Made by a program: the position numbers and the translations under genes. DNA of 57,622 bases from a virus (lineage: Duplodnaviria > Caudoviricetes), in IMG/VR virus record IMGVR_UViG_3300015360_000048, positions 1 to 57,622 of that record. The stretch is one strand, 5' to 3'. Each line of letters starts with the position of its first letter. Positions within the stretch are counted from its first letter, which is position 1. The notes beneath the pieces were generated by a model. It was given only the letters and a program-made list of their open reading frames with translations, did not search any database and was not told where the DNA came from. Of the stretch, positions 7,698 to 56,137 are shown in pieces.

Positions 7698-7705
7698 TAT
7701 TTATA
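7698..7705 (-). promoter_or_regulatory. T4-type late promoter (TATAAATA)
   Basis: Exact TATAAATA on minus strand upstream of the 7626-to-3185 gene run. Confidence 0.8.
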
Positions 7706-10700
7706 AATTTTCCACTATCGCATTCCAGTAGGTATAGAGGCCGTCTGGATCGTCTCTCATGAGCTCTTCTGTGTCTGGAATGTGAGCTGTGATTGCAATT
7801 GGTTCAATATCTGTCTTGACCCATATTTCAGGTCCAAGTTGACCGAAACCAACACCGATTCTATCATCCCCGGCGAATCTTTGAATGAATTCATCGAATG
7901 GAACCATCTCTCCTCTGAACGGTACTAGACCATCGAAGAAGATATAATTTGCTGTGAATTTGTCATTTCTTGATTCTTTGAAGAAGCTCTTGAAGCTTTC
8001 TGTCTTTGGCTTTGGTGTAGTGACGTATTGAGCCATGAGAGTCTTGACTTTTTCAGTTTCTACCAGCATCGTTCTATAAGCTCTCTTTAAGTGTAGTTGC
8101 TTACGTGGATTCTTGATGCAGTATTCTTCTGATCTGATAGAATCAGTTCCTGTGCCAGCAGCTGAATAATCTACTCCCTCTGTCCCGACATACGCATCCA
8201 TTTCTAGAATATAACCAATCAGATTGTGCCTTCTGCTGAATCCAGAATCTCCTATGTATTGAAGAGCCTTGTCGATGACCGGGGAAGTATAGACGCCTTT
8301 TCCTAGCATCTTTCCTGTAACTGCCACGCCGCCGACTGAGCTCTGCATGATTTTGAAACCAAATCGTAGAATCATATTAGCTGCGATCGAACCAGTTCCA
8401 TGATAGAGTGGTGCCATCTTTGTGGCCGCTTTTTCTGCCATCCACTCCTTCAATTCTTCGTTCATTAGATCGATTTCGAATATGTCGAGAACCCAAGGAG
8501 CAGAGTTGCCATGGCGGCCATTGCATTTCGAAAAAAGGTCAAGAGTTGCCTGGTCAAGCATTTCTTGATTCGTCGCTACCTTTGTGATCTTAGGTGGTGG
8601 AATTGCTACGCGTGTGTTTTCATATTTCTTGATGTTTAGATAGTAATCATCCTTCTCATCTCGGTAAGGCTTAATCCCGGCATCTTTGAAGTTGATTTCA
8701 AAGCTATTAAATTTCAAGATTTCAGTCATCGACTGGGGCGTAACCTTAGTTTCAAACGGGATAGGGGTATTTTCTTGCAGGCCCGAAATGTTCTGCAGAA
8801 GCAATGAGCTCTGGAGGATGTGATCGATAACCTTACCAAGACGGCTCGTGCCTTTGTTATTCGTCTTCAAAGAATCGATTACTCTAGAGAAGTATTTCTG
8901 TCTTTCAGGCTCCGTAAGATTTGGATTATTCTTCAAAGACATGTAATATTCGTCGACACCTGTTTGTTCAATCAGCTTGTTGAATCTTGTAATTTGAGAC
9001 CATTGATGTTCTCTTGAGGCTATACATTCAGCATATATAGAAGGATCGGGGATAACAGCAAGTTTCTTATTAAAATCTTCTAAATAATAGACGTCGTGAG
9101 TTCTTTTCTTCCATTCCTCTATAATTCGTGCTTTCAAAAATGCCTTATCAATGGAAAGGGATTCTGGATCGTTAGAATAAAGATGAAGTGTTTCATGAAA
9201 ATCTAAACTTTTAACATAATATATACCAGCATCTGAATTTAGCAACCTTTTGAATACTTCTTTAAGAGCTGGGTCGGTATTAATCCACATCGTGAACTTT
9301 TTAAGAAAGTTCCCGACGGTGATTCTCACGAGTGCTGGATCCACACCGAAAACATTCGTTGCTTGATTTTCTATTTCTAGAATATACTCTAACAGTAATC
9401 TTTTCTGAATGTCTTTAGGTACATTAGTTTTGTCTTGAAGAACACCAAGGAAGCTTTCAGGCCAGCCCCGTGATCGTGTGAAAATGCTAGTAATAGCCAT
9501 TGGAATGAATGTTCGGCAGATGTAGTCGTCTGCCAAAGGCGGTAATGGCTGTCCTGTGGTAACCAATCCCTTAAACATCTTATTTAGAAGATCTGATACA
9601 ATATCAAACTTCAGCCCTGGGGTATTCTTTAAATACATAATCCAAGAATTGATATAGTTCGGATTTCCCATCGCCTTTTCAGGTACGAAATTCACATAAT
9701 AACCAGATAGCGCTTTCATTTGACCTTCGATATAGAACCAAGGGCCAACCTTAGAATATATGATGTCAAGCATGACACTAATTTCCCGATTTTGTGTAAG
9801 ATAATTGATGTCTTGTTCGATGAAAGCGGTGTGATATTTTAATAGATAATCATGCTCTTTAGCAATATAGTCTTGCATGAAATCAATGGCTTTATCAAAA
9901 TCTTCTTTTACGATACCATCCAAATAAGAATAATTTATAGTGATGAATGATGTCAAATATGTGTATTTCATATTCTCGCTTTCGAAAAAGCCAGGATCTG
10001 CGAAGATACCGTTAGCAAAATCTTGGATTAGGAACGCCCAATAATGGGCGCGGATGGGGGCCCGCGGATTTAATGCCCCTCTCATCATCGTTCTGGCTTT
10101 TTCATCACCAAGTTTTTCTCTTAGAACTTTGTATGAAGGATATCCCATCTTTATTAGCATCGGAAGATCTCTTTTTATAAGTAATGCCGAGACTATTTCA
10201 GCTTCGTCTACTTCGAAACCAGCTTTCTTCTTTTGAAAAGCATCGAGATCTGGCATAAGTCCACATTCTTCAATCCAGCCATTTCTTATATATTTTGTAA
10301 CCATTTCTTTTTTGGGGCCGCTGATCTCTTCAAAAGTAAGCTTTAGTGAAGATCTAAATTTGTTAGCCCCAGCCATTTCTGCTACGGCTTTAGCTTTGAA
10401 CATAGCTCTTTTAGCAGCATCTGATTCTGGAATGAGATCAAGGAAAAGATTATAAATCGCTAACGATGAAGTATTATTATACATCTTAGTTGAAAAGATG
10501 GCTTCTAGAAACTCTGTTGAATATTTCATCTTGTTCTTTAGAAGTATCTTTCCGCAGTGCCTCGCCAACCAAGCAAGAAAGGTCTGATCGTCTTTAACGA
10601 CGGTCTTAAGAATTCTGATCATAGTCTTTTCTTCAAGAGTATGATCCCATCTGCTCGCCCCAGAAGCCATCATGAGAGAGTTTATAATCTCGACGATTTG

Positions 10701-11786
10701 AGGGAATGCTATTTGTGGGAACATATCTAGAAGATAGTTTATGATCTTCTCATCTTGATCTGATGTGCCTGCATAAGGAACATCTTTAAAAGGTTCTTCG
10801 TTAAGGCCTTGCATTTCTGAAACAACATAAGGTTGAACAGCATTCTTATAAGGCTGGGAGAAACCACCGAATGACGATTTACCAACAAGTGCTAGCATGC
10901 CTGCGACTAGATGCTGTTTGACAGCTCCTTTTTCAGAGCCAGTACGATGATGTAAGAATACCGCGTCAAAAACATCTTTATCCTTTCCTGATAGAGCAAA
11001 AGAGAACATGGCAAGAGGTCCTAATGTTTCACGGAATATTGACCCTGCCGAGAAGGATAAGGATTTTTCTGCTCTATCGGCTTGATTGTTGACAGCAGCT
11101 ACCGACAGCTCCCAGTTCGTCTTAGGTTTCTGAATGGTTGGAGTAGGTGGAGCTACGACCGCAACGTTCTTGGTTAGGACGGCTGCTTTTACTAGAACTG
11201 AACCTGTAGAAGAAGGAGACGCTGGAATATCTACCTTGGCGGCATTCTTCATGAGCATGTAGATTCTTTGAAAATCGGCGCACGTCTTCTTGATACGAGC
11301 AAGCGGGAAGATGATCGCGGCCATTTCGCTCAAACTCTTTTTCTTTTCAATGAACGGCAGAACCACTTGCTGGAATACGATCGCCGAACCACGAGCCGTT
11401 GCTATTGGAGTCTTAGCCAATAGGGCTCTGATCAGATCATCTTTGATGACAAGATCTTGCTTTGTTTTCAATAGATAGAGGAATTTCGTAAATTCATTGG
11501 TAAAGGTCATATTCAAGAAGTTTTTGTCAGCCATCGCTTTTACCGCAATAGCAAGATCGTGTGATTCGTCTGTTATTTCGGCGATTCTGGCTTTATCTAA
11601 TTGCTTGAAGTAGAGGAACAAACGATTGTCTCCTGGATGGCTTTGATAAAGGCTTAGGAAGCCTAAGAGGTTCATCCAGAACGCATCTTTAATCCCATCA
11701 TCATTTGCCAAGAACTCAGCCTTTGTGACAGATAATGTATTATTGGTATTTTTTTTGTTGAAGTAAAGAGAGTTTTCTTTAAGCAT
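7701..11786 (-). CDS. Large Alt-like protein with a C-terminal PARP-type (H-Y-E) ADP-ribosyltransferase domain
   Basis: LYHGT...GFK...GKMLGKGVYTSPVIDKALQY...ILEMDAYVG...SEEYCI; 1361 aa; late-promoter operon. Confidence 0.7.
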   Translation of the reverse strand: MLKENSLYFNKKNTNNTLSVTKAEFLANDDGIKDAFWMNLLGFLSLYQSHPGDNRLFLYFKQLDKARIAEITDESHDLAIAVKAMADKNFLNMTFTNEFTKFLYLLKTKQDLVIKDDLIRALLAKTPIATARGSAIVFQQVVLPFIEKKKSLSEMAAIIFPLARIKKTCADFQRIYMLMKNAAKVDIPASPSSTGSVLVKAAVLTKNVAVVAPPTPTIQKPKTNWELSVAAVNNQADRAEKSLSFSAGSIFRETLGPLAMFSFALSGKDKDVFDAVFLHHRTGSEKGAVKQHLVAGMLALVGKSSFGGFSQPYKNAVQPYVVSEMQGLNEEPFKDVPYAGTSDQDEKIINYLLDMFPQIAFPQIVEIINSLMMASGASRWDHTLEEKTMIRILKTVVKDDQTFLAWLARHCGKILLKNKMKYSTEFLEAIFSTKMYNNTSSLAIYNLFLDLIPESDAAKRAMFKAKAVAEMAGANKFRSSLKLTFEEISGPKKEMVTKYIRNGWIEECGLMPDLDAFQKKKAGFEVDEAEIVSALLIKRDLPMLIKMGYPSYKVLREKLGDEKARTMMRGALNPRAPIRAHYWAFLIQDFANGIFADPGFFESENMKYTYLTSFITINYSYLDGIVKEDFDKAIDFMQDYIAKEHDYLLKYHTAFIEQDINYLTQNREISVMLDIIYSKVGPWFYIEGQMKALSGYYVNFVPEKAMGNPNYINSWIMYLKNTPGLKFDIVSDLLNKMFKGLVTTGQPLPPLADDYICRTFIPMAITSIFTRSRGWPESFLGVLQDKTNVPKDIQKRLLLEYILEIENQATNVFGVDPALVRITVGNFLKKFTMWINTDPALKEVFKRLLNSDAGIYYVKSLDFHETLHLYSNDPESLSIDKAFLKARIIEEWKKRTHDVYYLEDFNKKLAVIPDPSIYAECIASREHQWSQITRFNKLIEQTGVDEYYMSLKNNPNLTEPERQKYFSRVIDSLKTNNKGTSRLGKVIDHILQSSLLLQNISGLQENTPIPFETKVTPQSMTEILKFNSFEINFKDAGIKPYRDEKDDYYLNIKKYENTRVAIPPPKITKVATNQEMLDQATLDLFSKCNGRHGNSAPWVLDIFEIDLMNEELKEWMAEKAATKMAPLYHGTGSIAANMILRFGFKIMQSSVGGVAVTGKMLGKGVYTSPVIDKALQYIGDSGFSRRHNLIGYILEMDAYVGTEGVDYSAAGTGTDSIRSEEYCIKNPRKQLHLKRAYRTMLVETEKVKTLMAQYVTTPKPKTESFKSFFKESRNDKFTANYIFFDGLVPFRGEMVPFDEFIQRFAGDDRIGVGFGQLGPEIWVKTDIEPIAITAHIPDTEELMRDDPDGLYTYWNAIVENL

Positions 11787-20516: not shown

Positions 20517-21935
20517 TTATTCCCAGATGTTGTAGCGGTCTACCATGATTGTTTCCAACATGACGCTCTTTGGCGAGAAGTTTTCCAACGTGTCTGCCAA
20601 GACGCTTTTCAAGATCGCAGGCGAGAATCCGGAGATCAACGCCGTGTTGTCGTCGTGCACAGTCACTGGCTGGTTCCCTTGACGGCCGCTTACATTCCAG
20701 AACACAATCTTTGGAAGTTTGTATCCTGAAGCTGCATATTTTGCCTTGATCGACGTGTAGTTTGTCGCATCAGGTGTCTTTGAGCACTGGTTAAATTCCA
20801 TGTCTGAGATTACCAAGATCATCTTTGGCATATCAGCTTCTGGAACTGTGTTGGTTTTTGCAAACTCTAGAACGTTCTCGAAAGCCGCCTCTAGGTTTGT
20901 ACCCATCGCCCAATGTGCTTGACGCATAGCGTTTATCTTTTCATAAACGTTTGCCCCAGTCAATTTGATCAATTCTGCTGTTTCTGAGAAGGAAAGCATA
21001 ATGTCGTGGTATGCACCTTTCTGCTTGTCAGCAGTGTACATCCCGATTGAAAGTGCGACGTCCATTGGTGTCAACCCCACGCCTTTGCTCACGACGTATC
21101 CCCCGCCCATAGACCCTGAGACGTCAACCATTGGCAAGATCATGTTGTCTCCTAAGAAATCAGGCAACGCTTTCCACTGTTCCAAGGAAGCAGTGATGTT
21201 GCCGTGATTCATAGACTTTAGGACATCATATGGATAAACGGCAGTAGCATTCATCTTCACACCTGCAACTCCCTTTTGGAGAGAAGCTAGATATTCAGTG
21301 TAGCGTACCGTGTCACGGCGGCCGAAAGCCTTCTGATAACGTGCAGAAGCCACGGAAGGTACATGCGAGTAGTTGATTGATGTCCAATCCTTCGCACACA
21401 TCTTCTGTTCAACTGTGGTTCTCAAACCAACGATGGTTTTTCTCCATCTCTTTGGCGTCCATCCCATGAACGTGCGCAATTCATATGCTAGCTTGCCCTG
21501 GACAGGCATCCACTTTGCAGCGATTGCATTCTTCGCATTGATCTGGTTCTTGATTTCTTCAAATGCCAATTTCTTAGCATAGTCAGTTGTGAAGATCAAC
21601 AAGTCATCCCAACGGCCGTATTCGGCCCATGCTGGGATCAACAATTTCAATTCGGTTGGGTATTGGTTTTCGATGTGGATCAAGATCTTACGTGTCGTTT
21701 CACGCTCACCAGCTCCGCCACGAATGTCACGTGCCCACATCAAGATACGCAAAGACAATTCCTTGTCTTCAGTATATGCTTCTGTGAAAGATCTCGTGAA
21801 GTCCATGTTACGGGTTCCGATGATACCGAAAAGGTCGACTAGCTTGCTGGTCGAAGAAAGATTGGTCGCCGCCTCGTTTGCAGTCTTCCCCAAGTTCTTC
21901 GTTGCATCGAGTTTAGATGTGAATACGTTCGTCAT
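20517..21935 (-). CDS. TROVE/Ro60-like helical domain plus vWA domain protein (DUF2828-type)
   Basis: RDIRGGAGER, YGRWDDL, AAKWMP, VEQKMC..W..INYSHVPS, MIDAS DVSGSM, TNLEAAF, ISDMEF, IVFWN, SGFSP. Confidence 0.8.
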   Translation of the reverse strand: MTNVFTSKLDATKNLGKTANEAATNLSSTSKLVDLFGIIGTRNMDFTRSFTEAYTEDKELSLRILMWARDIRGGAGERETTRKILIHIENQYPTELKLLIPAWAEYGRWDDLLIFTTDYAKKLAFEEIKNQINAKNAIAAKWMPVQGKLAYELRTFMGWTPKRWRKTIVGLRTTVEQKMCAKDWTSINYSHVPSVASARYQKAFGRRDTVRYTEYLASLQKGVAGVKMNATAVYPYDVLKSMNHGNITASLEQWKALPDFLGDNMILPMVDVSGSMGGGYVVSKGVGLTPMDVALSIGMYTADKQKGAYHDIMLSFSETAELIKLTGANVYEKINAMRQAHWAMGTNLEAAFENVLEFAKTNTVPEADMPKMILVISDMEFNQCSKTPDATNYTSIKAKYAASGYKLPKIVFWNVSGRQGNQPVTVHDDNTALISGFSPAILKSVLADTLENFSPKSVMLETIMVDRYNIWE

Positions 21936-22147: not shown

Positions 22148-22154
22148 TATTGTA

Positions 22155-22276
22155 TAACAGACTCAATTTTTAACCGCTCTGACCACTGAGCTACTTCCCC
22201 GTAAATGGTGGGGAAGAGAAGAATCGAACTTCTGCCTGTGCATTATAATTGCATTTCTTTTTGCTGAAATGAGTCT
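22155..22276 (-). ncRNA. Array unit 6: YrlA-like RNA containing a circularly permuted tRNA-like module (anticodon arm UAU)
   Basis: AGACTCA/TGAGTCT stem, TTCAGCAA; TGCA-ATTATAA-TGCA, T arm AGAAG-TTCGATT-CTTCT, CTTCCCC-ACCA-TTTAC-GGGGAAG, D arm GCTC-AGTGGTCA-GAGC. Confidence 0.8.
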
Positions 22277-22286
22277 AAAACTAAAG

Positions 22287-22339
22287 TAACAGATTTCCTT
22301 TTTGCGTGACAAGCATTTTTTGATTGATGAAAGAAATCT
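22287..22339 (-). ncRNA. Array unit 5 with Asp(GUC) anticodon-like stem-loop
   Basis: AGATTTC/GAAATCT stem, TTCATCAA, TGC-TTGTCAC-GCA. Confidence 0.65.
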
Positions 22340-22362
22340 AAATTCAGAGTAGATTAATGTAA

Positions 22363-22438
22363 AATCAGACTCTGTTGGTTTTCGTTAAGACTGATTTTGG
22401 TCAGTTTTTTTGAAATTTTTAGTTGCTGAATAGAGTCT
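22363..22438 (-). ncRNA. Array unit 4
   Basis: AGACTCT/AGAGTCT stem, TTCAGCAA, internal ACTGA-CCAAAA-TCAGT hairpin. Confidence 0.65.
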
Positions 22439-22446
22439 TAATTCTG

Positions 22447-22501
22447 TAACAGGTTCGCTTTTTTGTGTTTGAAACAAATTTTTGATTGCCGCAGGGAACC
22501 T
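22447..22501 (-). ncRNA. Array unit 3 with Leu(CAA) anticodon-like stem-loop
   Basis: AGGTTC/GAACCT stem, TGCGGCAA, TTTGT-TTCAAAC-ACAAA. Confidence 0.65.
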
Positions 22502-22536
22502 TAAAGTCGTTGCCCGTTCGGGCGAATTCAATAGTT

Positions 22537-22598
22537 TATCGGGGTCGTATTCCCCTTCGACGGGGAACTTTACCATTTCTTGTTGCTAAAACGACCCT
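22537..22598 (-). ncRNA. Array unit 2
   Basis: GGGTCGT/ACGACCC stem, TTTAGCAA, internal TTCCCC-GTCGAA-GGGGAA hairpin. Confidence 0.62.
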
Positions 22599-22606
22599 AA
22601 TATGGT

Positions 22607-22664
22607 TAACAGACTAACCTTTGCTCTTTGTTCAAAAAAGATTTTTGTTTGCTGTAAGTAGTCT
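22607..22664 (-). ncRNA. Array unit 1 with Ser(UGA) anticodon-like stem-loop
   Basis: AGACTA/TAGTCT stem, TACAGCAA, TCTTT-TTTGAAC-AAAGA. Confidence 0.65.
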
Positions 22665-22674
22665 TGAATAACGT

Positions 22675-22703
22675 ATATTACAATGAAATCAATGTGTTGT
22701 CAA
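22675..22703 (-). promoter_or_regulatory. Strong sigma70-type (early) promoter for the RNA array and TROVE-like gene
   Basis: TTGACA-17 nt-TAATAT; predicted start site a few nt before unit 1. Confidence 0.8.
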
Positions 22704-22710
22704 CACCTTT

Positions 22711-24114
22711 TTATGATTTCATCCACTTTGAAGCGTTTTTTCTGATGCCGTCAAACGACTGTTCACGAACAAGCTCAAAGTTCTTGTAAACTGGCTTCAG
22801 AAGGTTCGTTTCTTCTGTTGCCTCTTGTTCTTTAACAGTTATAAACGATTCACCATCATGAATCAATGCCAATCTACCTCTTTTTGAAACTTTCTTGTGA
22901 TCGGTGATTGGATCCTTGTAGACATCCTTTTCTTCACCATTGATTGTGATGGATGATGCCTTCATCGCGAACCTGATGGTATCGCGATCTACTTTCTGGA
23001 GAAGACCGCCGCCCATGCCGAATGCCATGTTTTCAGTAGAAAATCCATTGCTGTTGAGGCGTTCGATGATCTGCTTGATAATATCTGGTGTGCAGCCGTC
23101 GCCCTGAATAACCCGAACGTGAGGGTTGAGAACTTTGTAACCCTTTGAGTTCACGGTGTAGCCGAACTTGGTGGCCAGAAGCATCACAACTTCATTTGGT
23201 GTGGTTACTGGGTTTCCCGAATCTGGACGAACGACCAGTGTTCCGTTCCTTGCAAGAACCTTTTCACGGAGGTCTTCGCCCCAGATTCCAGAAACTGCTG
23301 TCCACAGATCATAAGAGTCTGAGACGCAAGCAATGATTGGATTGTCCTTGTATTGATCGAGCATATTTTCATACGCTTTGCGTTCACCATCACGGCCCCA
23401 GGCAGTGATTGTTGAGTGTTCAGAAGCCGGTATGCTGAAACCCGGGAAGTTTTCGTATGGATAGTAGGCCTCAATGGCTTCAAGAGCTTCGACAGTATCA
23501 GTGCCCATGAAGTTAACCAAGTGTGACATCCCGCCCAATGCTGCGGCTTCAAAGCTGGTTGCGCCTCTCGCCCCGAAATCGTGAAGCTTAAAGTTGATTT
23601 CATTCTCGGGGTTGTCACAGGTCTTCAAGAGGCTGTCCCAAATGATTTCCTTGACGCCGAGTGAAATCGTCGCCACTGTCGTTGGATACCAAATTGCCCG
23701 CATCAAAGCGGTTTCAATCCACGACGTCAACCAAGGGAACTCAGGATCTGTGTTGTGAACCTGGACCAAGACGTTGCCGACAGGAAGGATTGTACCTTCT
23801 TCAACGGCTGTAATTTCAAGAGGTAGTTTGCCGCCGTAACGATGGAACATTGCCTTCCATCCTTGGATGTTGAAAGGGACACCATGCTGGTTGTAAAGCC
23901 GATCTGCATATTCGATCTGTCTTGCTGTAAACCCAGGCAAGATGTATTCTTTGATGAATGCCTGCAGGCCGAAGAACAAAGTCTTGTCGTGCTTGCCGCC
24001 GGTTCTGGCTTCGATATAGGAAGACACTCGGGTCGTTCCTGGTGGGTACTGCTTGAAGTGCGATGTCTTGTAGCTGTCAACCGAAGTCAATAGTGATTTC
24101 TTTAACGTAGTCAT
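22711..24114 (-). CDS. nadV: Nicotinamide phosphoribosyltransferase
   Basis: DSYKTSH, FFGLQ, WYPTTVAT, LHDFGARG, GTDT, SIPASEHS, VSDSYD, VRPDSG, QGDG, FGMGGGLLQ. Confidence 0.93.
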   Translation of the reverse strand: MTTLKKSLLTSVDSYKTSHFKQYPPGTTRVSSYIEARTGGKHDKTLFFGLQAFIKEYILPGFTARQIEYADRLYNQHGVPFNIQGWKAMFHRYGGKLPLEITAVEEGTILPVGNVLVQVHNTDPEFPWLTSWIETALMRAIWYPTTVATISLGVKEIIWDSLLKTCDNPENEINFKLHDFGARGATSFEAAALGGMSHLVNFMGTDTVEALEAIEAYYPYENFPGFSIPASEHSTITAWGRDGERKAYENMLDQYKDNPIIACVSDSYDLWTAVSGIWGEDLREKVLARNGTLVVRPDSGNPVTTPNEVVMLLATKFGYTVNSKGYKVLNPHVRVIQGDGCTPDIIKQIIERLNSNGFSTENMAFGMGGGLLQKVDRDTIRFAMKASSITINGEEKDVYKDPITDHKKVSKRGRLALIHDGESFITVKEQEATEETNLLKPVYKNFELVREQSFDGIRKNASKWMKS

Positions 24115-24118
24115 GATT

Positions 24119-24162
24119 GCAAAAACTCCTTTTGCGTTTTTAGGTGAAGTCTTTCTTCACCT
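24119..24162 (-). promoter_or_regulatory. Two-hairpin leader of nadV (G-AAAGA-C loop hairpin plus SD-containing hairpin)
   Basis: AGGTGAAG-AAAGA-CTTCACCT then GCAAAA-GGAGT-TTTTGC just before the ATG. Confidence 0.55.
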
Positions 24163-25181
24163 TAGATTAAAGTCTGAATGATGTCCCAATGATCTTCAAA
24201 AAGGTCATCAGAACGTAGTTCTGATAGTTTGACCCATGCTGCTTTGTCTGCATCATCGGCTCCTCTCACGTCTGGTAGCCCCACATCTGGCAGACTGTTC
24301 AAATCCATCAAGTATGCTTGTGTGATTGTCCGACCGCGTTCAGAGCGGAAGGGCGCATCAAATGTTCTTGTCTTTGTAATTTTGCCACGAAGTAATGCCT
24401 GTGGCAATTTGATTCCTGTCTCTTCTTTGAGCTCACGAATCATTGCATCTTCAAGGCGTTCATCAACTTGAACGAAACCACCTGGTAAAGCCCACAATCC
24501 CTTCCCGGGATCTGCACGACGCCTTACTAAAAGAATGTGTGCTGCCTTGATAAGTACCACATCAACCGTCTGGAAAAATGGCGGATAGGGAGCTGCTTCC
24601 CATTGCTTCTTGTAGTTCTTGATGAATGTGTTTTGAGCAATGAGATCATAATAAACCTTATTGTTATTCCGCAACCATTCTTCAAGATAAGCATTGGTTT
24701 CTTCGGTCAACTGTTCAGGTGAGAATGAATAAAGTTTTTCATCAAACATTCTGTCTCTGATTTGTGTCGCCGACAAAATCACCTGCTGTGGTACATCAAT
24801 TGATTCCCAATAGGGGAACATCTTCAAGTAGAATGAACTGCGATCTTTACTGTGACCGATGACCCCAATATTGGCAGTTTTAGAATTCACAACCAATCGA
24901 TCAATTGAGGCGTGAAGTTCAGACAACCATTTGGTGTCGTCGTAAATCCAGTCTGGATGATAAATGAAATGAAGTCGTTGGCGATCATGTTTATCAAAAT
25001 TCCACATGATCATTTCCATGCGCTCTGAAGCATTCCATGGATTGCGGCCACTGCGGGCACGGTTAGCTCCGCCTAATACGATGATAACGTTCTTCGAAAG
25101 CTCTAATGCTTTTTGAACAACGCTGTGATGGCCTTTGTGGTATGGTTGGAATCGTCCAATAAAGATGAGATAGTCAAACAT
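24162..25181 (-). CDS. Bifunctional NMN adenylyltransferase / ADP-ribose pyrophosphatase (NadM-Nudix, NatV-like)
   Basis: FIGRFQPYHKGH, RNPW, SATQIR; Nudix box GGFV..E.LEDAMIRELKEETG; RSERGRTIT, GADDA, FEDH. Confidence 0.92.
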   Translation of the reverse strand: MFDYLIFIGRFQPYHKGHHSVVQKALELSKNVIIVLGGANRARSGRNPWNASERMEMIMWNFDKHDRQRLHFIYHPDWIYDDTKWLSELHASIDRLVVNSKTANIGVIGHSKDRSSFYLKMFPYWESIDVPQQVILSATQIRDRMFDEKLYSFSPEQLTEETNAYLEEWLRNNNKVYYDLIAQNTFIKNYKKQWEAAPYPPFFQTVDVVLIKAAHILLVRRRADPGKGLWALPGGFVQVDERLEDAMIRELKEETGIKLPQALLRGKITKTRTFDAPFRSERGRTITQAYLMDLNSLPDVGLPDVRGADDADKAAWVKLSELRSDDLFEDHWDIIQTLI

Positions 25182-39597: not shown

Positions 39598-40953
39598 GTG
39601 ATGTTTACAACTGAAAAGGTACCAAGTTATGCTCGTAAAGCTCTCGACATCATTGTTAGGGCTGGCTTCGACGCTAGGTTTGCTGGCGGATGTGTCCGAG
39701 ATACTCTTCTCGGGGTTAAACCTCAAGACTGGGATGTTGCTACAGATGCTACTCCTGATATTGTCACCGAGATTTTCACCGCTAACCAGATTACCGTCAT
39801 TCCAACGGGGCTTGCTCATGGAACTGTGTCAGCTCTTATAGATGATTTTTTGGTTGAAATCACCACCCTGCGCAAAGATGTTAAAACAGATGGTAGACAC
39901 GCAAAGGTCGAATTTGTTTCAGATTGGAAACAAGATGCACTGCGTCGTGATTTCACAATCAATGCTCTGTATGCAGATCATAATTGCATCATTCATGATT
40001 ATGTAGATGGCGTCTCAGATCTCGCTCTGGGAAGACTGAGGTTTGTAGGTGATGCCGAACTCAGGATTAAAGAAGACGCCTTGAGGATGATGAGGGCTCT
40101 GAGATTTATCCTAAACTCTAAAGATGGGTTTAATCTGATTCTTGATTATGAAGCCCTTGAGATTATTGAAAAACATGCAAACCTCATCAAGAACATTTCA
40201 AAAGAAAGAATATGGTCTGAGCTAAAAAAAGCACTGATCGGTCTCTGTAATATTGTCGAAAGAGATATGACCGACGAAACTGTTCCTGTTAGCCAAAGAA
40301 CTGATCAGTTTCAAGCAAATGATTATATGTCACGGGTCGTTGGCACCCTGATGAGATTGATTGGTATCTCAACTGATATTGAATTTACTATGAGAGGCTC
40401 ACAGATAGAACTGAAGAAAATAGTCAATCATTGGTTTCGGATGAAAGATAAATATCTAAAAATCAATGGAAAGCAAAGACACCCAGAGATGCTGATGCTG
40501 GCGCTGATCATGAGATTTGGAACTGATAAAAAATATTATACAAATTTCGTCTATCAGGCGATGGCGCTAAAGCTGAAGATGTCAGCTAAAAAGAAGATGG
40601 AGCTGTGCAGGTTTGATTCCCTGTTTAACATCGCACCTCATACGCCATCAGATGTTGATATGATTAATGGCGATTTTAATAGAATCGTTTGTGATTCTCT
40701 ATATCTTGCTCATGATCTCCATGAAGCAAGTATTTTTATCAACATTCGTGATGACATGCCTTATACTCTGCCAGAAGACACCCTGCCTTTTGATGTTATA
40801 GCAAAAGATGTCATGGCTGAAGGAGCACGTGGCTCAGATATTTCAAGATGGATAGAGAAGCTGCGTTTCAGCTGGTCAAGAAGTAAGGGAAGAAAGACTA
40901 AGACTGAACTAATCGAAGAATATAAATTGGGTTCTAAAACAGAAAGAGGCTAA
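39598..40953 (+). CDS. cca: tRNA nucleotidyltransferase (class II CCA-adding enzyme family)
   Basis: GGCVRD, DWDVAT, EITTLR.D...GRH, DALRRDFTINAL, RIKEDALR..RALRF, SKERI; divergent C-terminal half. Confidence 0.85.
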   Translation: MMFTTEKVPSYARKALDIIVRAGFDARFAGGCVRDTLLGVKPQDWDVATDATPDIVTEIFTANQITVIPTGLAHGTVSALIDDFLVEITTLRKDVKTDGRHAKVEFVSDWKQDALRRDFTINALYADHNCIIHDYVDGVSDLALGRLRFVGDAELRIKEDALRMMRALRFILNSKDGFNLILDYEALEIIEKHANLIKNISKERIWSELKKALIGLCNIVERDMTDETVPVSQRTDQFQANDYMSRVVGTLMRLIGISTDIEFTMRGSQIELKKIVNHWFRMKDKYLKINGKQRHPEMLMLALIMRFGTDKKYYTNFVYQAMALKLKMSAKKKMELCRFDSLFNIAPHTPSDVDMINGDFNRIVCDSLYLAHDLHEASIFINIRDDMPYTLPEDTLPFDVIAKDVMAEGARGSDISRWIEKLRFSWSRSKGRKTKTELIEEYKLGSKTERG

Positions 40954-40954
40954 G

Positions 40955-41176
40955 ATGATCGTTGCGATTGGTAGTAAGAACTTTGACTGGCAATATGGGG
41001 ATAATAACAATCTCATAATCACCAAGGCCGATGGGGCGACTTTGTCTCCGACTTTAACTGAAGTCACAGGCTATACCGACGAAGTGATGGCGAAGATGCG
41101 AACTACTGGTGCATGGCGGGTTACGCCTGCTCAGGTAGCTGCGTGGATTCGTAACAATGTAGCAGGAGTGAATTGA
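40955..41176 (+). CDS. Hypothetical protein
   Basis: 73-aa ORF packed in the operon. Confidence 0.55.
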   Translation: MIVAIGSKNFDWQYGDNNNLIITKADGATLSPTLTEVTGYTDEVMAKMRTTGAWRVTPAQVAAWIRNNVAGVN

Positions 41177-41177
41177 T

Positions 41178-42347
41178 TTGAAATATTTTCTTAAGAGTGG
41201 TTCTCGGTTCACTGTAACTGATGCCGAGGCACTGACGTTCCATGAAGAATTGCCAGTTGGAAACTATATGATCCAACAAGATCCTCAATCGGGAACTTTG
41301 TTTCTGTTATGTGTTGACCCATTCCAAACCGTGAAGAAAGTTTACGGCGGGTTGAATCAGAAGGCAAAAAGAATCTATAACACATTCACCCAGCGTGACA
41401 ATTCCACCGGTGTAATTTTGAACGGCGAAAAAGGATCGGGCAAAACTTTGCTGGCCCGAAATTTGTCAATCTTAGCGGCGAAAGATGGCATCCCAACGAT
41501 TATTATTACTGAGCCATGGCACGATGACCAATTCAAGAAGTTGATTCAAGACATCAAGCAGCCGTGCATTATTTTGTTTGACGAGTTCGAGAAAGTATAT
41601 CACAAGCGGGAAACCCAGACAGACATGCTTACACTTCTCGATGGCGTTTACCCAACGAAGAAAATGTTTGTGTTGACCTGCAACGATAAATACGCAATTG
41701 ATTCTCATATGCGTAACCGGCCAGGCCGTGCTTTTTACATGATCGACTTCAAAGAATTGGAGATGGGCTTTATCAAAGAATATTGTGAGGCAACCCTGAA
41801 CGATAAAAGCCATATCGAATCGCTGTGCAATTTGTCTTTGGTGTTTGATGCTTTCAATTTTGATATGCTCAAAGCTATTGTTGAAGAAATGAATCGCTAC
41901 AACGAATCCCCTCAGGACAGCATGAAGATGTTGAACGTGAAGCCCGAGTATAGCAACGACCGTACCGAATATACCGTGACGGCGTTCGAAGGTCAGCGTA
42001 AAATGAAGCCTATAGAATACTATCCTCTTGAATGGCGTGGCAATCCACTTATTGGTCAATTTGAGTTCCATGTATATCAGAAAGACGAAGCTGAAACGCC
42101 GGCTGAAGATTCATTGGACGCATTGCTCAACACGGCTCCGAAACTGAAAAGGTCATCGAGGAAAAGACTCGCACACGAAGATGAAGAAGATAGTGATTAT
42201 CTTTTCTATAAGCAACTTCATCCCAAGCATATCACAAGTCTTGATCCAAAGGAAAAGAAGTTTGTTTACAGAATTGAAGGTTCTGAATACACCTTACATC
42301 TCACACAGGCGAAAGAGGAGGCATATGATTATATGAAACTGATTTGA
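41178..42347 (+). CDS. AAA+ ATPase
   Basis: GEKGSGKT, LFDEFEK, LTLLDG, LTCN, NRPGR. Confidence 0.85.
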   Translation: MKYFLKSGSRFTVTDAEALTFHEELPVGNYMIQQDPQSGTLFLLCVDPFQTVKKVYGGLNQKAKRIYNTFTQRDNSTGVILNGEKGSGKTLLARNLSILAAKDGIPTIIITEPWHDDQFKKLIQDIKQPCIILFDEFEKVYHKRETQTDMLTLLDGVYPTKKMFVLTCNDKYAIDSHMRNRPGRAFYMIDFKELEMGFIKEYCEATLNDKSHIESLCNLSLVFDAFNFDMLKAIVEEMNRYNESPQDSMKMLNVKPEYSNDRTEYTVTAFEGQRKMKPIEYYPLEWRGNPLIGQFEFHVYQKDEAETPAEDSLDALLNTAPKLKRSSRKRLAHEDEEDSDYLFYKQLHPKHITSLDPKEKKFVYRIEGSEYTLHLTQAKEEAYDYMKLI

Positions 42348-42841
42348 CAGTACAAAGAATTCTATTTTTAGATATGGATGGCCCAGTCATTAATACACCT
42401 TGTCTATTTTTACACCCAGGAGCTTCCATTCGCCGAGAATGTTTGAACACAGGTGCCTTAGGTTATATCAAACGCTTCTGTAATATTTCTGGAGCCAAGG
42501 TTGTTACCAACTCTATGCACAATTACGAAAACATTCCAGACTCTCTTGTTCGTAGAACATTGAAATATGACTTGATTGACTGGGGCTTGCCTGCAAAAAT
42601 TTTCCATGACGATTGGAGAACAGAGTTCGGGAAAGACGCATCGCATAATCGTCTAACGGCCATTCATCAATGGCAAGCCCATAATGGACCTGCTGATTGG
42701 GTTTGTTTTGATGACGTACATTTTACAGAAGACAAACGTCTAATCCTAATTGATTTTGATAGAGGCATAGACCACTCTGCTTATAGAAAAGCGTTGAAAG
42801 TTTATGGATACAGGCAGGTGCCACTCTGGCTAGGAGATTAA
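42344..42841 (+). CDS. HAD-superfamily phosphatase (RNA-repair-associated HAD-like)
   Basis: ILFLDMDGP (DxDG), VVTNS, WVCFDD. Confidence 0.7.
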   Translation: MTVQRILFLDMDGPVINTPCLFLHPGASIRRECLNTGALGYIKRFCNISGAKVVTNSMHNYENIPDSLVRRTLKYDLIDWGLPAKIFHDDWRTEFGKDASHNRLTAIHQWQAHNGPADWVCFDDVHFTEDKRLILIDFDRGIDHSAYRKALKVYGYRQVPLWLGD

Positions 42842-44251
42842 ATGAGAAGCGACGAAGAAAGAGAAAGCGAAAGACTTCGTTTCTATAATACATTAACAAA
42901 CTCTGTTGAGCCTTTTGTTCCGATTGAGCGGAGCAATATTCGAATGTATGTTTGCGGGCCAACTGTTTACAATAACATCCATATTGGAAACGCCAGACCT
43001 GTTGTGGTTTTTGATTTACTATATCGTCTTCTAAAATGGGTTTATGGTGAAGACAATGTTACCTATACCAGAAACATAACTGATATAGACGACAAAATTT
43101 CAAATATTGTTAAGACTCAATCAGGACATGCTCCCTATTTCGACCTTCATAAAAAAGCTAAAGAATTCACTGGTGGCTTTATCCATAGTTTCAATATAGA
43201 TTGCATTGCACTTGGATGTTTGCAACCGAGTTATACACCAAAGGCGAGCGATTTTATTACTGATATGCAAGTAATGATAAAAACTCTCATAGAAAAAGGT
43301 CATACTTACGAAAAAGGGGGCAATGTCTATTTCGCCGCAGCTAGTTACCCGAAACATGGTTTGCTCGCTGGTCGAGATTTTGAGGCTACAAAAGTTGCGC
43401 GCATCTCAAAAGATCCAGACAAAAGGCATCCAGCCGATTTTCTTCTTTGGAAACATTCTGTTCCAGATAAAGATTTCGCCTATGATTCTCCTTGGGGCTG
43501 GGGTAGACCAGGTTGGCATATTGAATGCTCTACAATGGCAAAGCATTTCTTAGGCCCCACATTTGATATTCACGGCGGTGGACAAGACCTAATTTTTCCA
43601 CATCACGAGAATGAAATCACCCAATCTTGCTGCGCCAACGACACCGACAAGATGGCAAGATATTGGTTGCATAATGGTTTTGTTACTGTGAACGATAAGA
43701 AGATGTCTAAGAGTGATGGGTCAATGATCACCATAGCTGATCTTATGGGTTCGACTAAATTTGCCGGGCAAATTTGGGATGGGCAAGTTCTTCGCTGGCT
43801 TCTTTTAAGATCCCATTATAGGCACCCTCTAAACTTTTCCGCCGAAGTTTTGTTTGATGCACAGAGATCTTTGCGAGAATTATTCTTCCGCTGCCGCTTA
43901 ACTCATGGCGTTGGGGTTAGAAGAAGACATGTCGCGGTAGACATAGAATTCATTATGGCTCTATCAGATGATTTGAATACGCCAAGAGCAATTGCTAGAC
44001 TCTTTGCAATAACAGATTCTTATAGGATAGGTGATGCGCTCTTGCTGATGGGATTTAATCCAGCCCAACCTTTAGGATCAAAAGACAGTGAGGAAGATGT
44101 CATTCAGAGCCTAATCGTTCAAAGAAATTATGCACGACAAGAAAAAGATTGGAAAGAATCAGATAAGATTCGTGACGTACTCGATAAAATGGGAATCAAA
44201 GTGAAAGATTCTGTAACTGGAAGTTTAAGCACTTGGGAGAGAGTAAAATAG
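42842..44251 (+). CDS. cysS: Cysteinyl-tRNA synthetase
   Basis: MYVCGPTVY, HIGNAR, NITDIDDKI, DFLLWK, GRPGWHIECS, DIHGGG.DL.FPHHENE, KMSKS, DDLNTP, R..AR..KDW..SDKIRD.L. Confidence 0.94.
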   Translation: MRSDEERESERLRFYNTLTNSVEPFVPIERSNIRMYVCGPTVYNNIHIGNARPVVVFDLLYRLLKWVYGEDNVTYTRNITDIDDKISNIVKTQSGHAPYFDLHKKAKEFTGGFIHSFNIDCIALGCLQPSYTPKASDFITDMQVMIKTLIEKGHTYEKGGNVYFAAASYPKHGLLAGRDFEATKVARISKDPDKRHPADFLLWKHSVPDKDFAYDSPWGWGRPGWHIECSTMAKHFLGPTFDIHGGGQDLIFPHHENEITQSCCANDTDKMARYWLHNGFVTVNDKKMSKSDGSMITIADLMGSTKFAGQIWDGQVLRWLLLRSHYRHPLNFSAEVLFDAQRSLRELFFRCRLTHGVGVRRRHVAVDIEFIMALSDDLNTPRAIARLFAITDSYRIGDALLLMGFNPAQPLGSKDSEEDVIQSLIVQRNYARQEKDWKESDKIRDVLDKMGIKVKDSVTGSLSTWERVK

Positions 44252-55857: not shown

Positions 55858-55888
55858 AGAAGACATTTACTTTCCTTCAAGAACCTGT

Positions 55889-55896
55889 TATAAATA
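55889..55896 (+). promoter_or_regulatory. T4-type late promoter in front of tmRNA
   Basis: Exact TATAAATA 5 nt before the predicted RNA start. Confidence 0.7.
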
Positions 55897-55900
55897 ATAT

Positions 55901-56130
55901 GCAGTTGACGTTTGTATAGGTTGAGATAGAAATTCAAGACTCGGGGGCAGTACCCGACGCCTCCACCATTTATGGGGGCGACATAGGATCGATTGGGTTT
56001 ATTAAGGCTTTCTAGAGTTTACTGCAAAAGACTAAATGGAGCACATAACGTGAACCATGAATTCGAGTACGCGCAAGCCGCGTAAGCGAACTTCGGGGAG
56101 GCCCTCTGCCTAGCAACAGAAGTGAGGGCA
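55901..56130 (+). ncRNA. ssrA: Permuted two-piece tmRNA (alphaproteobacterial type)
   Basis: Acceptor piece ...GACTCGGG-GGCAGTA-CCCGA-CGCCTCC-ACCA (ends 55968), TTTAT linker, coding piece GGGGGCG (G3-U70 Ala pair) ACATAGGATCGA; tag frame 56038-56085 GAHNVNHEFEYAQAA*; 3' GCCCTC..CCTAGCAACAGAA..GAGGGC stem. Confidence 0.9.
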
Positions 56131-56137
56131 CTAATTT

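What the first reader, a model, noticed from the sequence alone, without database searches (positions are those of the whole stretch)
22239..22641. Array cargoes are tRNA anticodon stem-loops with different anticodons: possible decoy library against anticodon nucleases
Seen (minus strand): right after the GCAA + A-rich linker, four units carry a hairpin with a 7-nt loop having U at position 33 and A at 37. Unit 1 TCTTT-TT[TGA]AC-AAAGA (Ser, 22625-22641); unit 3 TTTGT-TT[CAA]AC-ACAAA (Leu, 22462-22478); unit 5 TGC-TT[GTC]AC-GCA (Asp, 22303-22315); unit 6 TGCA-AT[TAT]AA-TGCA (Ile, 22239-22253). The other units have weaker, unstemmed U-NNN-A words at the same place (unit 2 T-GGT-AA, unit 4 T-TTC-AA plus a 6-nt-loop hairpin ACTGA-CCAAAA-TCAGT, unit 7 T-CAT-A), which could be chance in AT-rich DNA. 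Established: several anti-phage effectors (PrrC, RloC, PARIS AriB, VapC-type toxins) cut specific tRNA anticodon loops. Inference: early-expressed, Ro-stabilised anticodon mimics could act as decoys or inhibitors of such nucleases, or titrate synthetases/modification enzymes; the array would be an expandable set of specificities.
Basis: partly seen in the sequence, partly recalled or inferred. Interest (0 to 1): 0.92.

Follow-up and report, generated by a model that had tools for sequence, protein, structure and literature searches.

The report
Anticodon-loop mimics on phage Ro-type RNAs
A T4-like phage carries a row of small RNAs beside a Ro-like RNA-binding protein gene, and many of them display hairpins that copy the anticodon loops of different tRNAs, so they may bait enzymes that cut, repair or modify tRNAs.

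Summary
The four hairpins lie exactly where stated. They exceed chance in the window: 4 of 5 units against 0.86 expected, P about 0.0015.

The units belong to a conserved RNA family: a 7-bp terminal stem, UUNCAGCAA, a variable insert, the 3' stem, then CUGUU. They lie next to genes for a Ro60-fold DUF2828/VWA protein. All 97 model hits in 99 sources are on the gene strand, often between tRNA genes.

- 24 of 56 short units have a stem of at least 4 bp with a 7-nt loop, U33 and A37. Shuffles give 2.2.
- 15 of 33 distinct such loops equal real anticodon loops of tRNA genes in the same loci; about 2.9 are expected.
- A34 is almost absent, and the triplets differ within every multi-unit locus.
- Unit 6 is a complete circularly permuted tRNA mimic.

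Anticodon stem-loop mimicry is therefore supported. The decoy function is untested, and tethering for tRNA repair is a serious rival.

Caveats: the hairpins are thermodynamically marginal, only 1 of 9 units in named cultured phages is strictly anticodon-like, and there is no expression evidence.

No description turned up in my literature searches. The frame also resembles Dictyostelium Class I RNAs, but below the Rfam threshold.

The parts
22675..22703 (-). Sigma-70-type promoter TTGACA-17-TAATAT. The predicted start falls about at the AAG that opens unit 1.
   Evidence: Consensus scan, 10 of 12 matches. Positions. This is a pattern match only.
22606..22664 (-). Unit 1: terminal stem AGACTA/TAGTCT, motif TTACAGCAA, anticodon-like hairpin TCTTT-TTTGAAC-AAAGA (22625-22641, triplet UGA), 3' CUGUU.
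   Evidence: Model R1 53.4 bits, R2 57.4 bits. Rfam Class I RNA 26.8 bits, below threshold. Hairpin confirmed.
22535..22599 (-). No anticodon-like loop.
   Evidence: Sequence and fold. Not found by R1 or R2.
22446..22501 (-). Unit 3: stem GGTTC/GAACC, CTGCGGCAA, anticodon-like hairpin TTTGT-TTCAAAC-ACAAA (22462-22478, triplet CAA).
   Evidence: R1 53.9 bits, R2 33.9 bits.
22362..22438 (-). Unit 4: stem AGACTCT/AGAGTCT, ATTCAGCAA, hairpin ACTGA-CCAAAA-TCAGT (22390-22405) with a 6-nt loop. Not anticodon-like.
   Evidence: R1 31.7 bits. Rfam Class I 26.5 bits..
22286..22339 (-). Unit 5: stem AGATTTC/GAAATCT, TTTCATCAA, weak 3-bp hairpin TGC-TTGTCAC-GCA (22303-22315, triplet GUC).
   Evidence: R1 44.6 bits, R2 33.9 bits.
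22154..22276 (-). Unit 6: the frame encloses a circularly permuted tRNA mimic. In order: anticodon-like arm 22239-22253 (UAU), T arm 22217-22233, acceptor hairpin closed after ACCA 22194-22216, UA, D arm 22176-22191.
   Evidence: R1 27.5 bits. Rfam YrlA 24.6 bits (threshold 69) and a partial tmRNA tRNA-like-domain hit. Fold z-score -2.92 with the T, acceptor and D arms in the minimum-energy structure. Coordinates.
20517..21935 (-). Gene for a 472-aa DUF2828 + DUF7788/VWA protein with a Ro60 fold. It is the presumed protein partner of the units.
   Evidence: Pfam. AlphaFold2 model with pLDDT 71. Foldseek top 12 matches all Ro60, TM up to 0.55. No PDB match by sequence.

Best explanation
The 22154-22664 stretch (minus strand) encodes a co-transcribed row of small RNAs of one conserved family.

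Each RNA has a constant 'handle': AAG, a 7-bp terminal stem, single-stranded UUNCAGCAA, the 3' stem strand, then CUGUU. I infer that this handle is the binding site for the Ro60-fold DUF2828 protein encoded just downstream.

Each RNA also has a variable insert taken from the tRNA tool-kit.
- Units 1, 3 and 5 carry an isolated anticodon stem-loop mimic (UGA, CAA, GUC).
- Unit 6 carries a whole circularly permuted tRNA mimic (UAU).
- Unit 4 carries an unrelated hairpin.

Shown: the family, its link to the gene, the fold of the protein, and the statistical and comparative reality of the anticodon-loop signature with varying triplets.

Inferred: the RNP presents anticodon loops to proteins that read anticodon loops. 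The leading candidate is competitive bait (decoy) for host anticodon-loop nucleases during infection. Different units would cover different tRNA specificities.
For: Family and linkage.
- Model R1: 26 of 26 hits and 63 of 63 hits at E <= 0.01 lie on the strand of the DUF2828 gene, directly up- or downstream of it.
- Model R2: 97 of 97.
- Search blind to the insert: 133 gene-strand hits against 19 opposite-strand hits.
- The terminal stem is 99.2% paired, with compensatory changes at 7 of 7 pairs. The inner stem is 88.9% paired, with changes at 5 of 5 pairs. Slid controls give 32-47% (the alignment was fitted to the model).

Anticodon signature.
- 24 of 56 units against 2.2 in shuffles. 18 of 42 units outside the model seed. 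32 of 120 against 5.3.
- In the R2 alignment, 34 rows have a 7-nt loop: U33 in 32 of 34, A37 in 29, A38 in 32, C or U at position 32 in 28, A34 in 1.
- Real tRNA genes of the same loci (186 distinct arms): U33 100%, A37 89%, A38 83%, C or U at position 32 98%.
- 15 of 33 distinct loops equal a real anticodon loop. Chance is about 0.088 per loop, P about 3e-8. 20 of 22 triplets are real anticodons.
- The stem is 5 bp in 24 of 40 such hairpins.
- The loops match real ones while the stems differ from every real arm by 3-10 of 17 positions.
- Triplets are all different within 8 of 8 multi-unit loci.
- Orthologous units differ only at position 34: UGA against CGA, CAU against UAU.

Context.
- The units sit between tRNA genes.
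- RtcB or an RNA ligase lies next to the gene in phages A511 and CBB.
- The window itself encodes a CCA-adding-type enzyme, an RNA-repair HAD domain, CysRS and a tmRNA.
- The Bas63 Ro60-like gp130 counters a defence system (PMC11482910, passages read).
- AriB recognises the anticodon stem-loop (PMC11464382, passages read).
Against: - There is no evidence that the RNAs are made, bound by the protein or folded as drawn.
- The isolated hairpins are marginal, 0 to -1.4 kcal/mol.
- Roughly half of the short units lack the signature: 32 of 56 by the strict rule. Unit 4 of this window lacks it.
- In named phages only 1 of 9 units is strictly anticodon-like: HY02 0 of 3, A511 0 of 3, CP81 0 of 1, the Staphylococcus phage 0 of 1, Aegeus 1 of 1.
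- The units are phylogenetically related, so the shuffle tests overstate independence. A deliberately coarse one-per-cluster test gives 7 of 54 against 2.46, reached by 1 of 500 shuffles.
- Nearly all triplets end in A or U, as expected from A+T-rich inserts, so the 'library' covers only part of the code.
- UUU (Lys), the anticodon that I recall as the best-known nuclease target (PrrC), appears in only one loop type.
- Many anticodon nucleases need modified bases, which these RNAs may not carry (established knowledge, recalled).
- The one defence that a Ro-like gene is reported to counter (ppl) is predicted to act on DNA.
Confidence: 0.5

Rival explanations
1. Adaptor for tRNA repair or quality control. 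As with Y RNAs, the insert tethers the Ro-like protein to tRNA-handling enzymes (RNA ligase RtcB or Rnl, CCA-adding enzyme, PNPase, modification enzymes), or gates its cavity. The RNP would service or clear damaged tRNAs. The anticodon-like arm is a docking site, not a decoy.
For: - The protein has the Ro60 fold.
- Y RNAs tether Ro60 to PNPase, and YrlA mimics tRNA (PMC4201824, passages; PMC12135203, passages).
- ROT/TROVE proteins with a tRNA-like partner are described as an RNA-repair platform in jumbo phages (PMC7824862, passage).
- RtcB lies near the gene in A511 and an RNA ligase lies next to it in CBB.
- The window holds a CCA-adding-type enzyme and an RNA-repair HAD domain.
- Inserts range from nothing to whole tRNA mimics.
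Against: - A docking site need not keep seven loop letters identical to real anticodon loops. It need not avoid A34, nor differ in triplet between units of one phage.
- No repair gene lies next to the array in this window. The nearest is about 17 kb away.
Confidence: 0.25
2. Evolutionary leftovers. The units arose from tRNA genes inside phage tRNA arrays. The anticodon-like hairpin is inherited sequence with no present role as an anticodon mimic. Only the handle, and some hairpin, is selected.
For: - The units are interleaved with tRNA genes.
- Some units keep D, T and acceptor arms.
- About half of the units have other hairpins or none.
Against: - The loops stay identical to real anticodon loops while the stems have diverged from every real arm (3-10 of 17 differences). 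Decay should hit both.
- Stem pairs change by compensation.
- A34 is avoided although the inserts are 41-47% A.
- Triplets are distinct within loci, 8 of 8.
Confidence: 0.12
3. Kissing-loop or antisense specificity. The U-turn loops present three to five bases for fast pairing with an RNA target, such as a tRNA anticodon or an mRNA. They would steer the Ro-like protein to chosen RNAs.
For: A 7-nt loop with U at position 2 is the classic U-turn used by antisense RNAs and by anticodon-anticodon pairing (established knowledge, recalled). The triplets vary while the flanks are fixed.
Against: - Read as codons, several triplets are stops (UGA in several units, UAG), which have no cognate tRNA.
- The triplets fit the anticodon repertoire instead: 20 of 22.
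- The avoidance of A34 is an anticodon rule, not a codon rule.
Confidence: 0.08
4. Chance hairpins in A+T-rich spacer DNA.
For: The stems are short and A-U rich. The predicted free energy is 0 to -1.4 kcal/mol. Per-unit chance of the weak form is up to 0.26-0.30 in units 1 and 6.
Against: - Window-only P is 0.0015-0.003.
- Family-level enrichment is 6- to 20-fold over shuffles.
- Many loops are identical to real anticodon loops.
Confidence: 0.02
5. Unit 6 is a permuted tRNA gene that is processed into a working tRNA-Ile(UAU).
For: All tRNA arms are present in permuted order, with ACCA after the 3' acceptor strand. The phage fragment has no tRNA genes.
Against: - The handle would have to be excised between positions 26 and 27, and no known bacterial pathway does this.
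- The anticodon stem has 4 bp with a mismatch.
- In other phages related units close the acceptor stem with a tetraloop and lack CCA.
Confidence: 0.03

Closest known systems
Bacterial and phage Y RNAs of the YrlA type (Rfam RF02553) with Ro60/Rsr
   Same: - Small RNAs encoded within a few kb of a Ro60-fold gene and on the same strand.
- The 5' and 3' ends pair in a terminal stem.
- The insert mimics tRNA. Unit 6 has T, acceptor and D arms, and several units occur per locus.
   Different: - The handle motif is UUNCAGCAA / CUGUU, not the GNCGAA described for YrlA.
- Scores are far below the Rfam threshold: 24.6-41.2 bits against 69.
- The protein is DUF2828, not Pfam TROVE, and has no sequence match to solved Ro60 structures.
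- Most units carry only an anticodon arm. That is the very part that YrlA replaces with its Ro-binding stem.
Dictyostelium Class I RNAs (Rfam RF01414)
   Same: - AAG start, short terminal stem, adjacent CUUACAGCAA-type motif, variable middle, CUGU end, about 60 nt (PMC7919456, passages).
- Apart from tRNA-related families, it is the best-scoring Rfam family on short units: 3 in the window (26.8, 26.5 and 23.4 bits) and 2 in locus L005 (32.5 and 25.5 bits).
   Different: - All scores are below the threshold of 41.5.
- Class I RNAs are reported as unique to dictyostelids. They have a DUSE promoter and an RRM protein partner.
- Whether Dictyostelium has a DUF2828 protein could not be tested here.
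Phage-encoded tRNAs that neutralise tRNA-cleaving defences (for example T5 tRNA-Lys against PARIS AriB)
   Same: A phage RNA with an anticodon arm, encoded in tRNA arrays, acting in the conflict over tRNA cleavage. AriB recognises the anticodon stem-loop (PMC11464382, passages).
   Different: Those are complete, functional, cleavage-resistant tRNAs that replace the host tRNA. The units here cannot decode, because there is no acceptor end or elbow in units 1, 3 and 5. They could act only as ligands.
Thermus phage phiLo Ro60 with Yrl1 and Yrl2
   Same: A phage Ro60-fold protein, and the best structural match to this protein (TM 0.53-0.55). Y-like RNAs are encoded upstream of its gene, and the authors propose a role in escaping host defence.
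   Different: The Yrl RNAs carry the CGAA motif and a stem-bulge-stem form. No anticodon-like insert is described.

Membership tests
tRNA anticodon stem-loop (as a structural mimic) | 5-bp stem closing a 7-nt loop | tested here: met
   Units 1 and 3 have 5 bp and a 7-nt loop. Unit 6 has 4 bp and unit 5 has 3 bp. Family-wide, the stem is 5 bp in 24 of 40 such hairpins, and loop lengths 7 and 9 are enriched about 2-fold over shuffles.
tRNA anticodon stem-loop (as a structural mimic) | U33, purine 37, pyrimidine 32, A (or C) 38, and no A34 (except ACG) | tested here: met
   Window loops: UUUGAAC, UUCAAAC, UUGUCAC, AUUAUAA. Family: U33 in 32 of 34, A37 in 29, A38 in 32, C or U at position 32 in 28, A34 in 1. 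A32 is commoner than in real tRNAs.
tRNA anticodon stem-loop (as a structural mimic) | Stable folding, and recognition by tRNA-directed enzymes | not testable with these tools
   Predicted free energy is 0 to -1.4 kcal/mol for the four hairpins alone. There are no probing or enzyme data.
tRNA gene (RF00005) | Cloverleaf recognised by tRNA finders | tested here: not met
   ARAGORN finds 0 genes in the window. Rfam gathering finds no tRNA.
YrlA / Y RNA | Encoded near a Ro60-type gene and on the same strand | tested here: met
   The array ends 218 nt upstream of the gene. 97 of 97 model hits are on the gene strand. The protein has the Ro60 fold.
YrlA / Y RNA | Rfam RF02553 gathering score, and the GNCGAA Ro-binding motif | tested here: not met
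   24.6 bits against 69. The handle carries CAGCAA instead. The motif definition comes from PMC4201824.
YrlA / Y RNA | Bound by the Ro protein | not testable with these tools
   No RIP or EMSA data. No RNA run is listed.
Dictyostelium Class I RNA (RF01414) | AAG start, 6-bp stem, 11-nt motif ending CAGCAA, about 60 nt, CUGU end | tested here: met
   Units 1, 4 and 5 align end to end with the model. Feature list from PMC7919456.
Dictyostelium Class I RNA (RF01414) | Rfam gathering score of 41.5; dictyostelid genome with a DUSE promoter | tested here: not met
   The best scores are 26.8 bits (window) and 32.5 bits (L005). This is a phage with a sigma-70-type promoter.
Decoy of anticodon nucleases | Binds or is cut by an anticodon nuclease and protects host tRNA | not testable with these tools
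   No known family of this kind turned up in the searches. Function is inferred only.

The most novel reading that the evidence does not exclude
A widespread ribonucleoprotein family that I found undescribed.
- A Ro60-fold DUF2828 protein pairs with 'CAGCAA-handle' small RNAs.
- Their exchangeable inserts form a programmable set of anticodon-loop baits. Each unit is tuned to one tRNA specificity, and the set complements the phage's own tRNA genes. The phage uses them to blunt tRNA-targeting immunity.
- The same handle in Dictyostelium Class I RNAs would make those long-unexplained eukaryotic RNAs members of this Ro-like RNP family.
Probability: 0.25. Interest if true: 0.92.

Novelty: new variant of a known kind. 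Interest (0 to 1): 0.8.

Why it matters
Ro60 with Y RNAs is a classic RNP whose function is poorly understood. Phage tRNA arrays are now seen as counter-measures to tRNA-cleaving defences.

Here the two meet. A Ro-fold protein sits beside small RNAs that carry bare anticodon arms with different, tRNA-true triplets. No paper that I could find describes this handle or isolated anticodon-arm inserts.

The handle RNAs occur next to a gene family with more than 7,600 relatives in public data. They occur in tractable phages: Felixounavirus of E. coli, Listeria A511 and a mycobacteriophage. The hypothesis can therefore be tested directly with known anticodon nucleases.

Several database 'hypothetical proteins' overlapping these units are probably RNA genes. 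The resemblance to Dictyostelium Class I RNAs offers a concrete lead to their unknown partner.

Tried and rejected
- Tandem Repeats Finder: 0 arrays. The units share a frame, not overall sequence.
- Expression: no RNA holder is listed for the stretch, only three DNA metagenome runs.
- Sequence-profile search of solved structures: 0 hits at E <= 1. The Ro60 link rests on fold comparison only.
- ESM Atlas: only viral DUF2828 clusters.
- The search for homologous proteins listed only close, unnamed relatives, so I could not tell whether Dictyostelium has a DUF2828 protein.
- Avesson et al. 2011, on the protein partners of Class I RNA, is not held.
- Model R1 found no unit at E <= 1 in the KVP40, CBB, Izhevsk or Aegeus loci. 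R2 later found one in Aegeus. By eye the Izhevsk spacer holds three handle-like units. KVP40 and CBB remain without a unit.
- Single-linkage clustering of inserts at 70% identity merged most true units, because the inserts are low-complexity and A-rich. It is therefore only a very conservative control.
- The MAFFT alignment A3 of 22 units put several loops out of register. I replaced it with the model-based alignment A5.
I do not treat it as a unit.
- The first version of the shuffle script timed out and was rerun.
- Supplements of the papers cited were not read.
Full report
WHAT IS THERE

The window is a 57.6-kb fragment of a T4-like phage. It encodes gp23, gp20, RegA, a clamp loader and UvsY.

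Between a NAMPT gene (22711-24114, minus strand) and a 472-aa gene (20517-21935, minus strand) lies 775 nt with no convincing ORF. Read on the minus strand it starts with a TTGACA-17-TAATAT promoter match at 22703-22675.

It then holds five units of one design:
- (A)AG, then a 6-7-bp stem strand;
- N-UU-N-CAGCAA;
- an A-rich linker, a variable insert, and a second A-rich linker;
- the complementary stem strand, then CUGUU.

Tandem Repeats Finder sees nothing. Only the frame is shared, not the overall sequence.

THE OBSERVATION

With a stem of at least 3 bp, a 7-nt loop, U at loop position 2 and A at position 6, 4 of the 5 units qualify. Dinucleotide shuffles of the same inserts give 0.86 on average (P = 0.0015). 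With at least 4 bp the count is 3 of 5 against 0.30 (P = 0.003).

Caveats:
- Alone, the hairpins are predicted at 0.0, 0.0, -0.4 and -1.4 kcal/mol.
- Unit 4 has a 6-nt loop (22390-22405).

THE FAMILY

The downstream protein is DUF2828 + DUF7788/VWA. A profile of it matches no solved structure by sequence. An AlphaFold2 model (pLDDT 71) has Ro60 structures as its 12 best Foldseek matches. These include Thermus phage phiLo Ro60 (TM 0.53-0.55), Deinococcus Rsr, and Xenopus and human Ro60.

I fetched 90 viral loci with homologues. I built a covariance model of the frame from 14 units that I picked by frame and length.
- At E <= 0.01 it finds 26 units and 63 units. Every one is on the strand of the gene and directly beside it. 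81 are distinct.
- A second model that adds the inner hairpin finds 97 matches in 99 sources, again all on the gene strand.
- A search that ignores the insert (stem complementarity plus the motif plus a G after the stem) gives 133 gene-strand hits against 19 opposite-strand hits.
- On the model-fitted alignment the terminal stem is 99.2% paired, with compensatory changes at all 7 pairs. The inner stem is 88.9% paired, with changes at all 5 pairs. Slid controls give 32-47%.

Units also occur in E. coli Felixounavirus HY02, Listeria phage A511, a mycobacteriophage, a Campylobacter phage and a Staphylococcus phage. By eye they occur in Bacillus phage Izhevsk too.

In many loci the units lie between tRNA genes with spacers of 5-8 nt. 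227 tRNA genes occur in 44 of 93 loci, all on the gene strand.

ARE THE INSERTS ANTICODON ARMS?

Enrichment:
- Among 56 distinct short units, 24 have a stem of at least 4 bp with a 7-nt loop, U33 and A37. The shuffle mean is 2.2 and the maximum is 7 in 500 shuffles. With at least 5 bp the count is 16 against 0.74.
- Leaving out the 14 seed units, 18 of 42 qualify.
- In the insert-blind set, 32 of 120 qualify against 5.3. None of the 18 opposite-strand noise hits does.
- A very coarse one-per-cluster control still gives 7 of 54 against 2.46, reached by 1 of 500 shuffles.

Features that I did not select for also follow tRNA rules. In 34 aligned 7-nt loops, position 32 is C or U in 28, position 38 is A in 32, and position 34 is A in 1. 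The inserts themselves are 41-47% A. The 186 distinct real anticodon arms of tRNA genes in these loci show C or U at position 32 in 98%, U33 in 100%, A37 in 89% and A38 in 83%.

Comparison with real tRNA genes in the same loci:
- Of 33 distinct anticodon-like loops, 15 are identical in all seven letters to a real anticodon loop. Chance is about 0.088 per loop, P about 3e-8.
- 20 of 22 triplets are anticodons used by those tRNA genes.
- The stem is 5 bp in 24 of 40 hairpins.
- The stems are not copies of real arms. They differ by 3-10 of 17 positions, mostly in the stem. The loop is therefore what is kept.

Variation between units:
- Within loci that hold two or more such units, the triplets are all different (8 of 8).
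- Orthologous units differ only at position 34: UGA against CGA, CAU against UAU.

Larger inserts:
- Unit 6 of the window is a whole tRNA in circularly permuted order: anticodon arm (UAU), variable region, T arm, 3' acceptor strand with ACCA, a loop, 5' acceptor strand, UA, D arm.
- Another locus has a non-permuted D arm, anticodon arm (GCA) and T arm set inside the frame.

AGAINST

- Roughly half of the short units carry other hairpins or none.
- In named cultured phages only 1 of 9 units is strictly anticodon-like.
- Triplets ending in C or G are rare.
- No RNA data exist for this stretch.
- Related units are not independent samples.

HOW IT LIKELY WORKS

Shown: a conserved handle linked to a Ro-fold protein gene, and inserts that copy tRNA parts, most often a bare anticodon arm with a tRNA-true loop and a variable triplet.

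Inferred: the handle binds the protein, and the RNP displays anticodon loops to proteins that read them.

A decoy role against anticodon-loop nucleases fits several points:
- the phage context;
- the embedding of units in tRNA arrays;
- the finding that AriB of PARIS recognises the anticodon stem-loop (PMC11464382, passages);
- the report that the Ro60-like gp130 of Bas63 counters a defence system and sits beside tRNA genes (PMC11482910, passages).

An adaptor role in tRNA repair or quality control fits the known Y RNA logic. It also fits the RtcB or RNA-ligase neighbours in A511 and CBB.

A weak hint is that unit triplets avoid the anticodons of tRNA genes in the same locus. 3 of 30 are shared against 6.95 on permutation, P about 0.03.

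COMPARISON WITH KNOWN FAMILIES

The closest kind is the YrlA-type Y RNA, but its defining motif and its Rfam threshold are not met.

Apart from tRNA-related families, the best-scoring Rfam family on the short units is the Dictyostelium Class I RNA. It hits 3 units in the window (26.8, 26.5 and 23.4 bits) and 2 in L005 (32.5 and 25.5 bits). All are below the threshold of 41.5. Its published features match the handle: AAG start, 6-bp stem, 11-nt motif, about 60 nt, CUGU end (PMC7919456, passages). Homology is not shown.

My literature searches found no description of this handle or of isolated anticodon-arm inserts. Only open-access papers and preprints are covered, and no supplements were read.

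VERDICT

The decoy function remains open.

Noticed in passing
window 22610-22663, 22366-22437, 22290-22338 (minus strand); L005 758-814 and 523-580: Short units match Rfam RF01414 (Dictyostelium Class I RNA) end to end, at 23-32 bits against a threshold of 41.5. The shared features are an AAG start, a short stem, CUUACAGCAA and a CUG(U) end. Class I RNAs are published as unique to dictyostelids.
   Followed up: partly
window 39598-44251 (+): A cluster of tRNA-related genes: a PolyA_pol/CCA-adding-type nucleotidyltransferase (39598-40953), an AAA/nSTAND ATPase (41178-42347), an RNA-repair 'Swiss Army Knife' HAD domain (42344-42841) and a cysteinyl-tRNA synthetase (42842-44251).
   Followed up: partly
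window 55862-56132 (+); L059 about 273-661: A phage-encoded two-piece (permuted, alphaproteobacterial-type) tmRNA, above the Rfam threshold.
   Followed up: no
window 7701-11786 (-): A 1361-aa protein with a PARP catalytic (ADP-ribosyltransferase) domain near its C-terminus.
   Followed up: no
window 22711-25181 (-): NAMPT plus a bifunctional cytidylyltransferase-like/NUDIX gene directly upstream of the array, i.e. an NAD+ salvage pair. That such pairs counter NAD-depleting defences is recalled, not tested.
   Followed up: no
L093 (Listeria phage A511) 2498-3049: A ROOL RNA match (87.5 bits, threshold 99.1) lies between tRNA genes and the Ro-like gene. An RtcB ('tRNA splicing ligase') lies 1.3 kb downstream.
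   Followed up: no
L098 4475-4618, L099 2858-2995, L100 4510-4599: Small 'hypothetical protein' CDSs annotated in the GenBank records of phages Aegeus, CP81 and S-CoN_Ph3 overlap model hits for the handle RNA. They may be RNA genes called as proteins.
   Followed up: partly
30 anticodon-like units in loci that also hold tRNA genes: Unit triplets coincide with an anticodon of a tRNA gene in the same locus in only 3 of 30 cases. Permutation gives a mean of 6.95, P about 0.03. The loci are partial and related, so this is a weak hint of complementarity.
   Followed up: partly
L003 1410-1484; L004 1672-1767, L074 340-431, L081 327-418, L024 5094-5185, L017 4919-5010: A tRNA with anticodon CUA (an amber-suppressor type, labelled Pyl by ARAGORN), and unusually long (90-96 nt) tRNA-Ile(UAU) genes in several related phages.
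   Followed up: no
L012, L013, L015 (contigs labelled GVMAG): DUF2828 homologues at 26-28% identity on giant-virus metagenome contigs. No handle RNA was found beside them at E <= 10.
   Followed up: no
window 22512-22599 (-): A divergent unit-like element (stem GGGTCGT/ACGACCC, TTTAGCAA, G+C-rich 6-nt-loop hairpin) is followed by a small GCCCG-AAC-GGGC hairpin. Neither model recovers it.
   Followed up: partly
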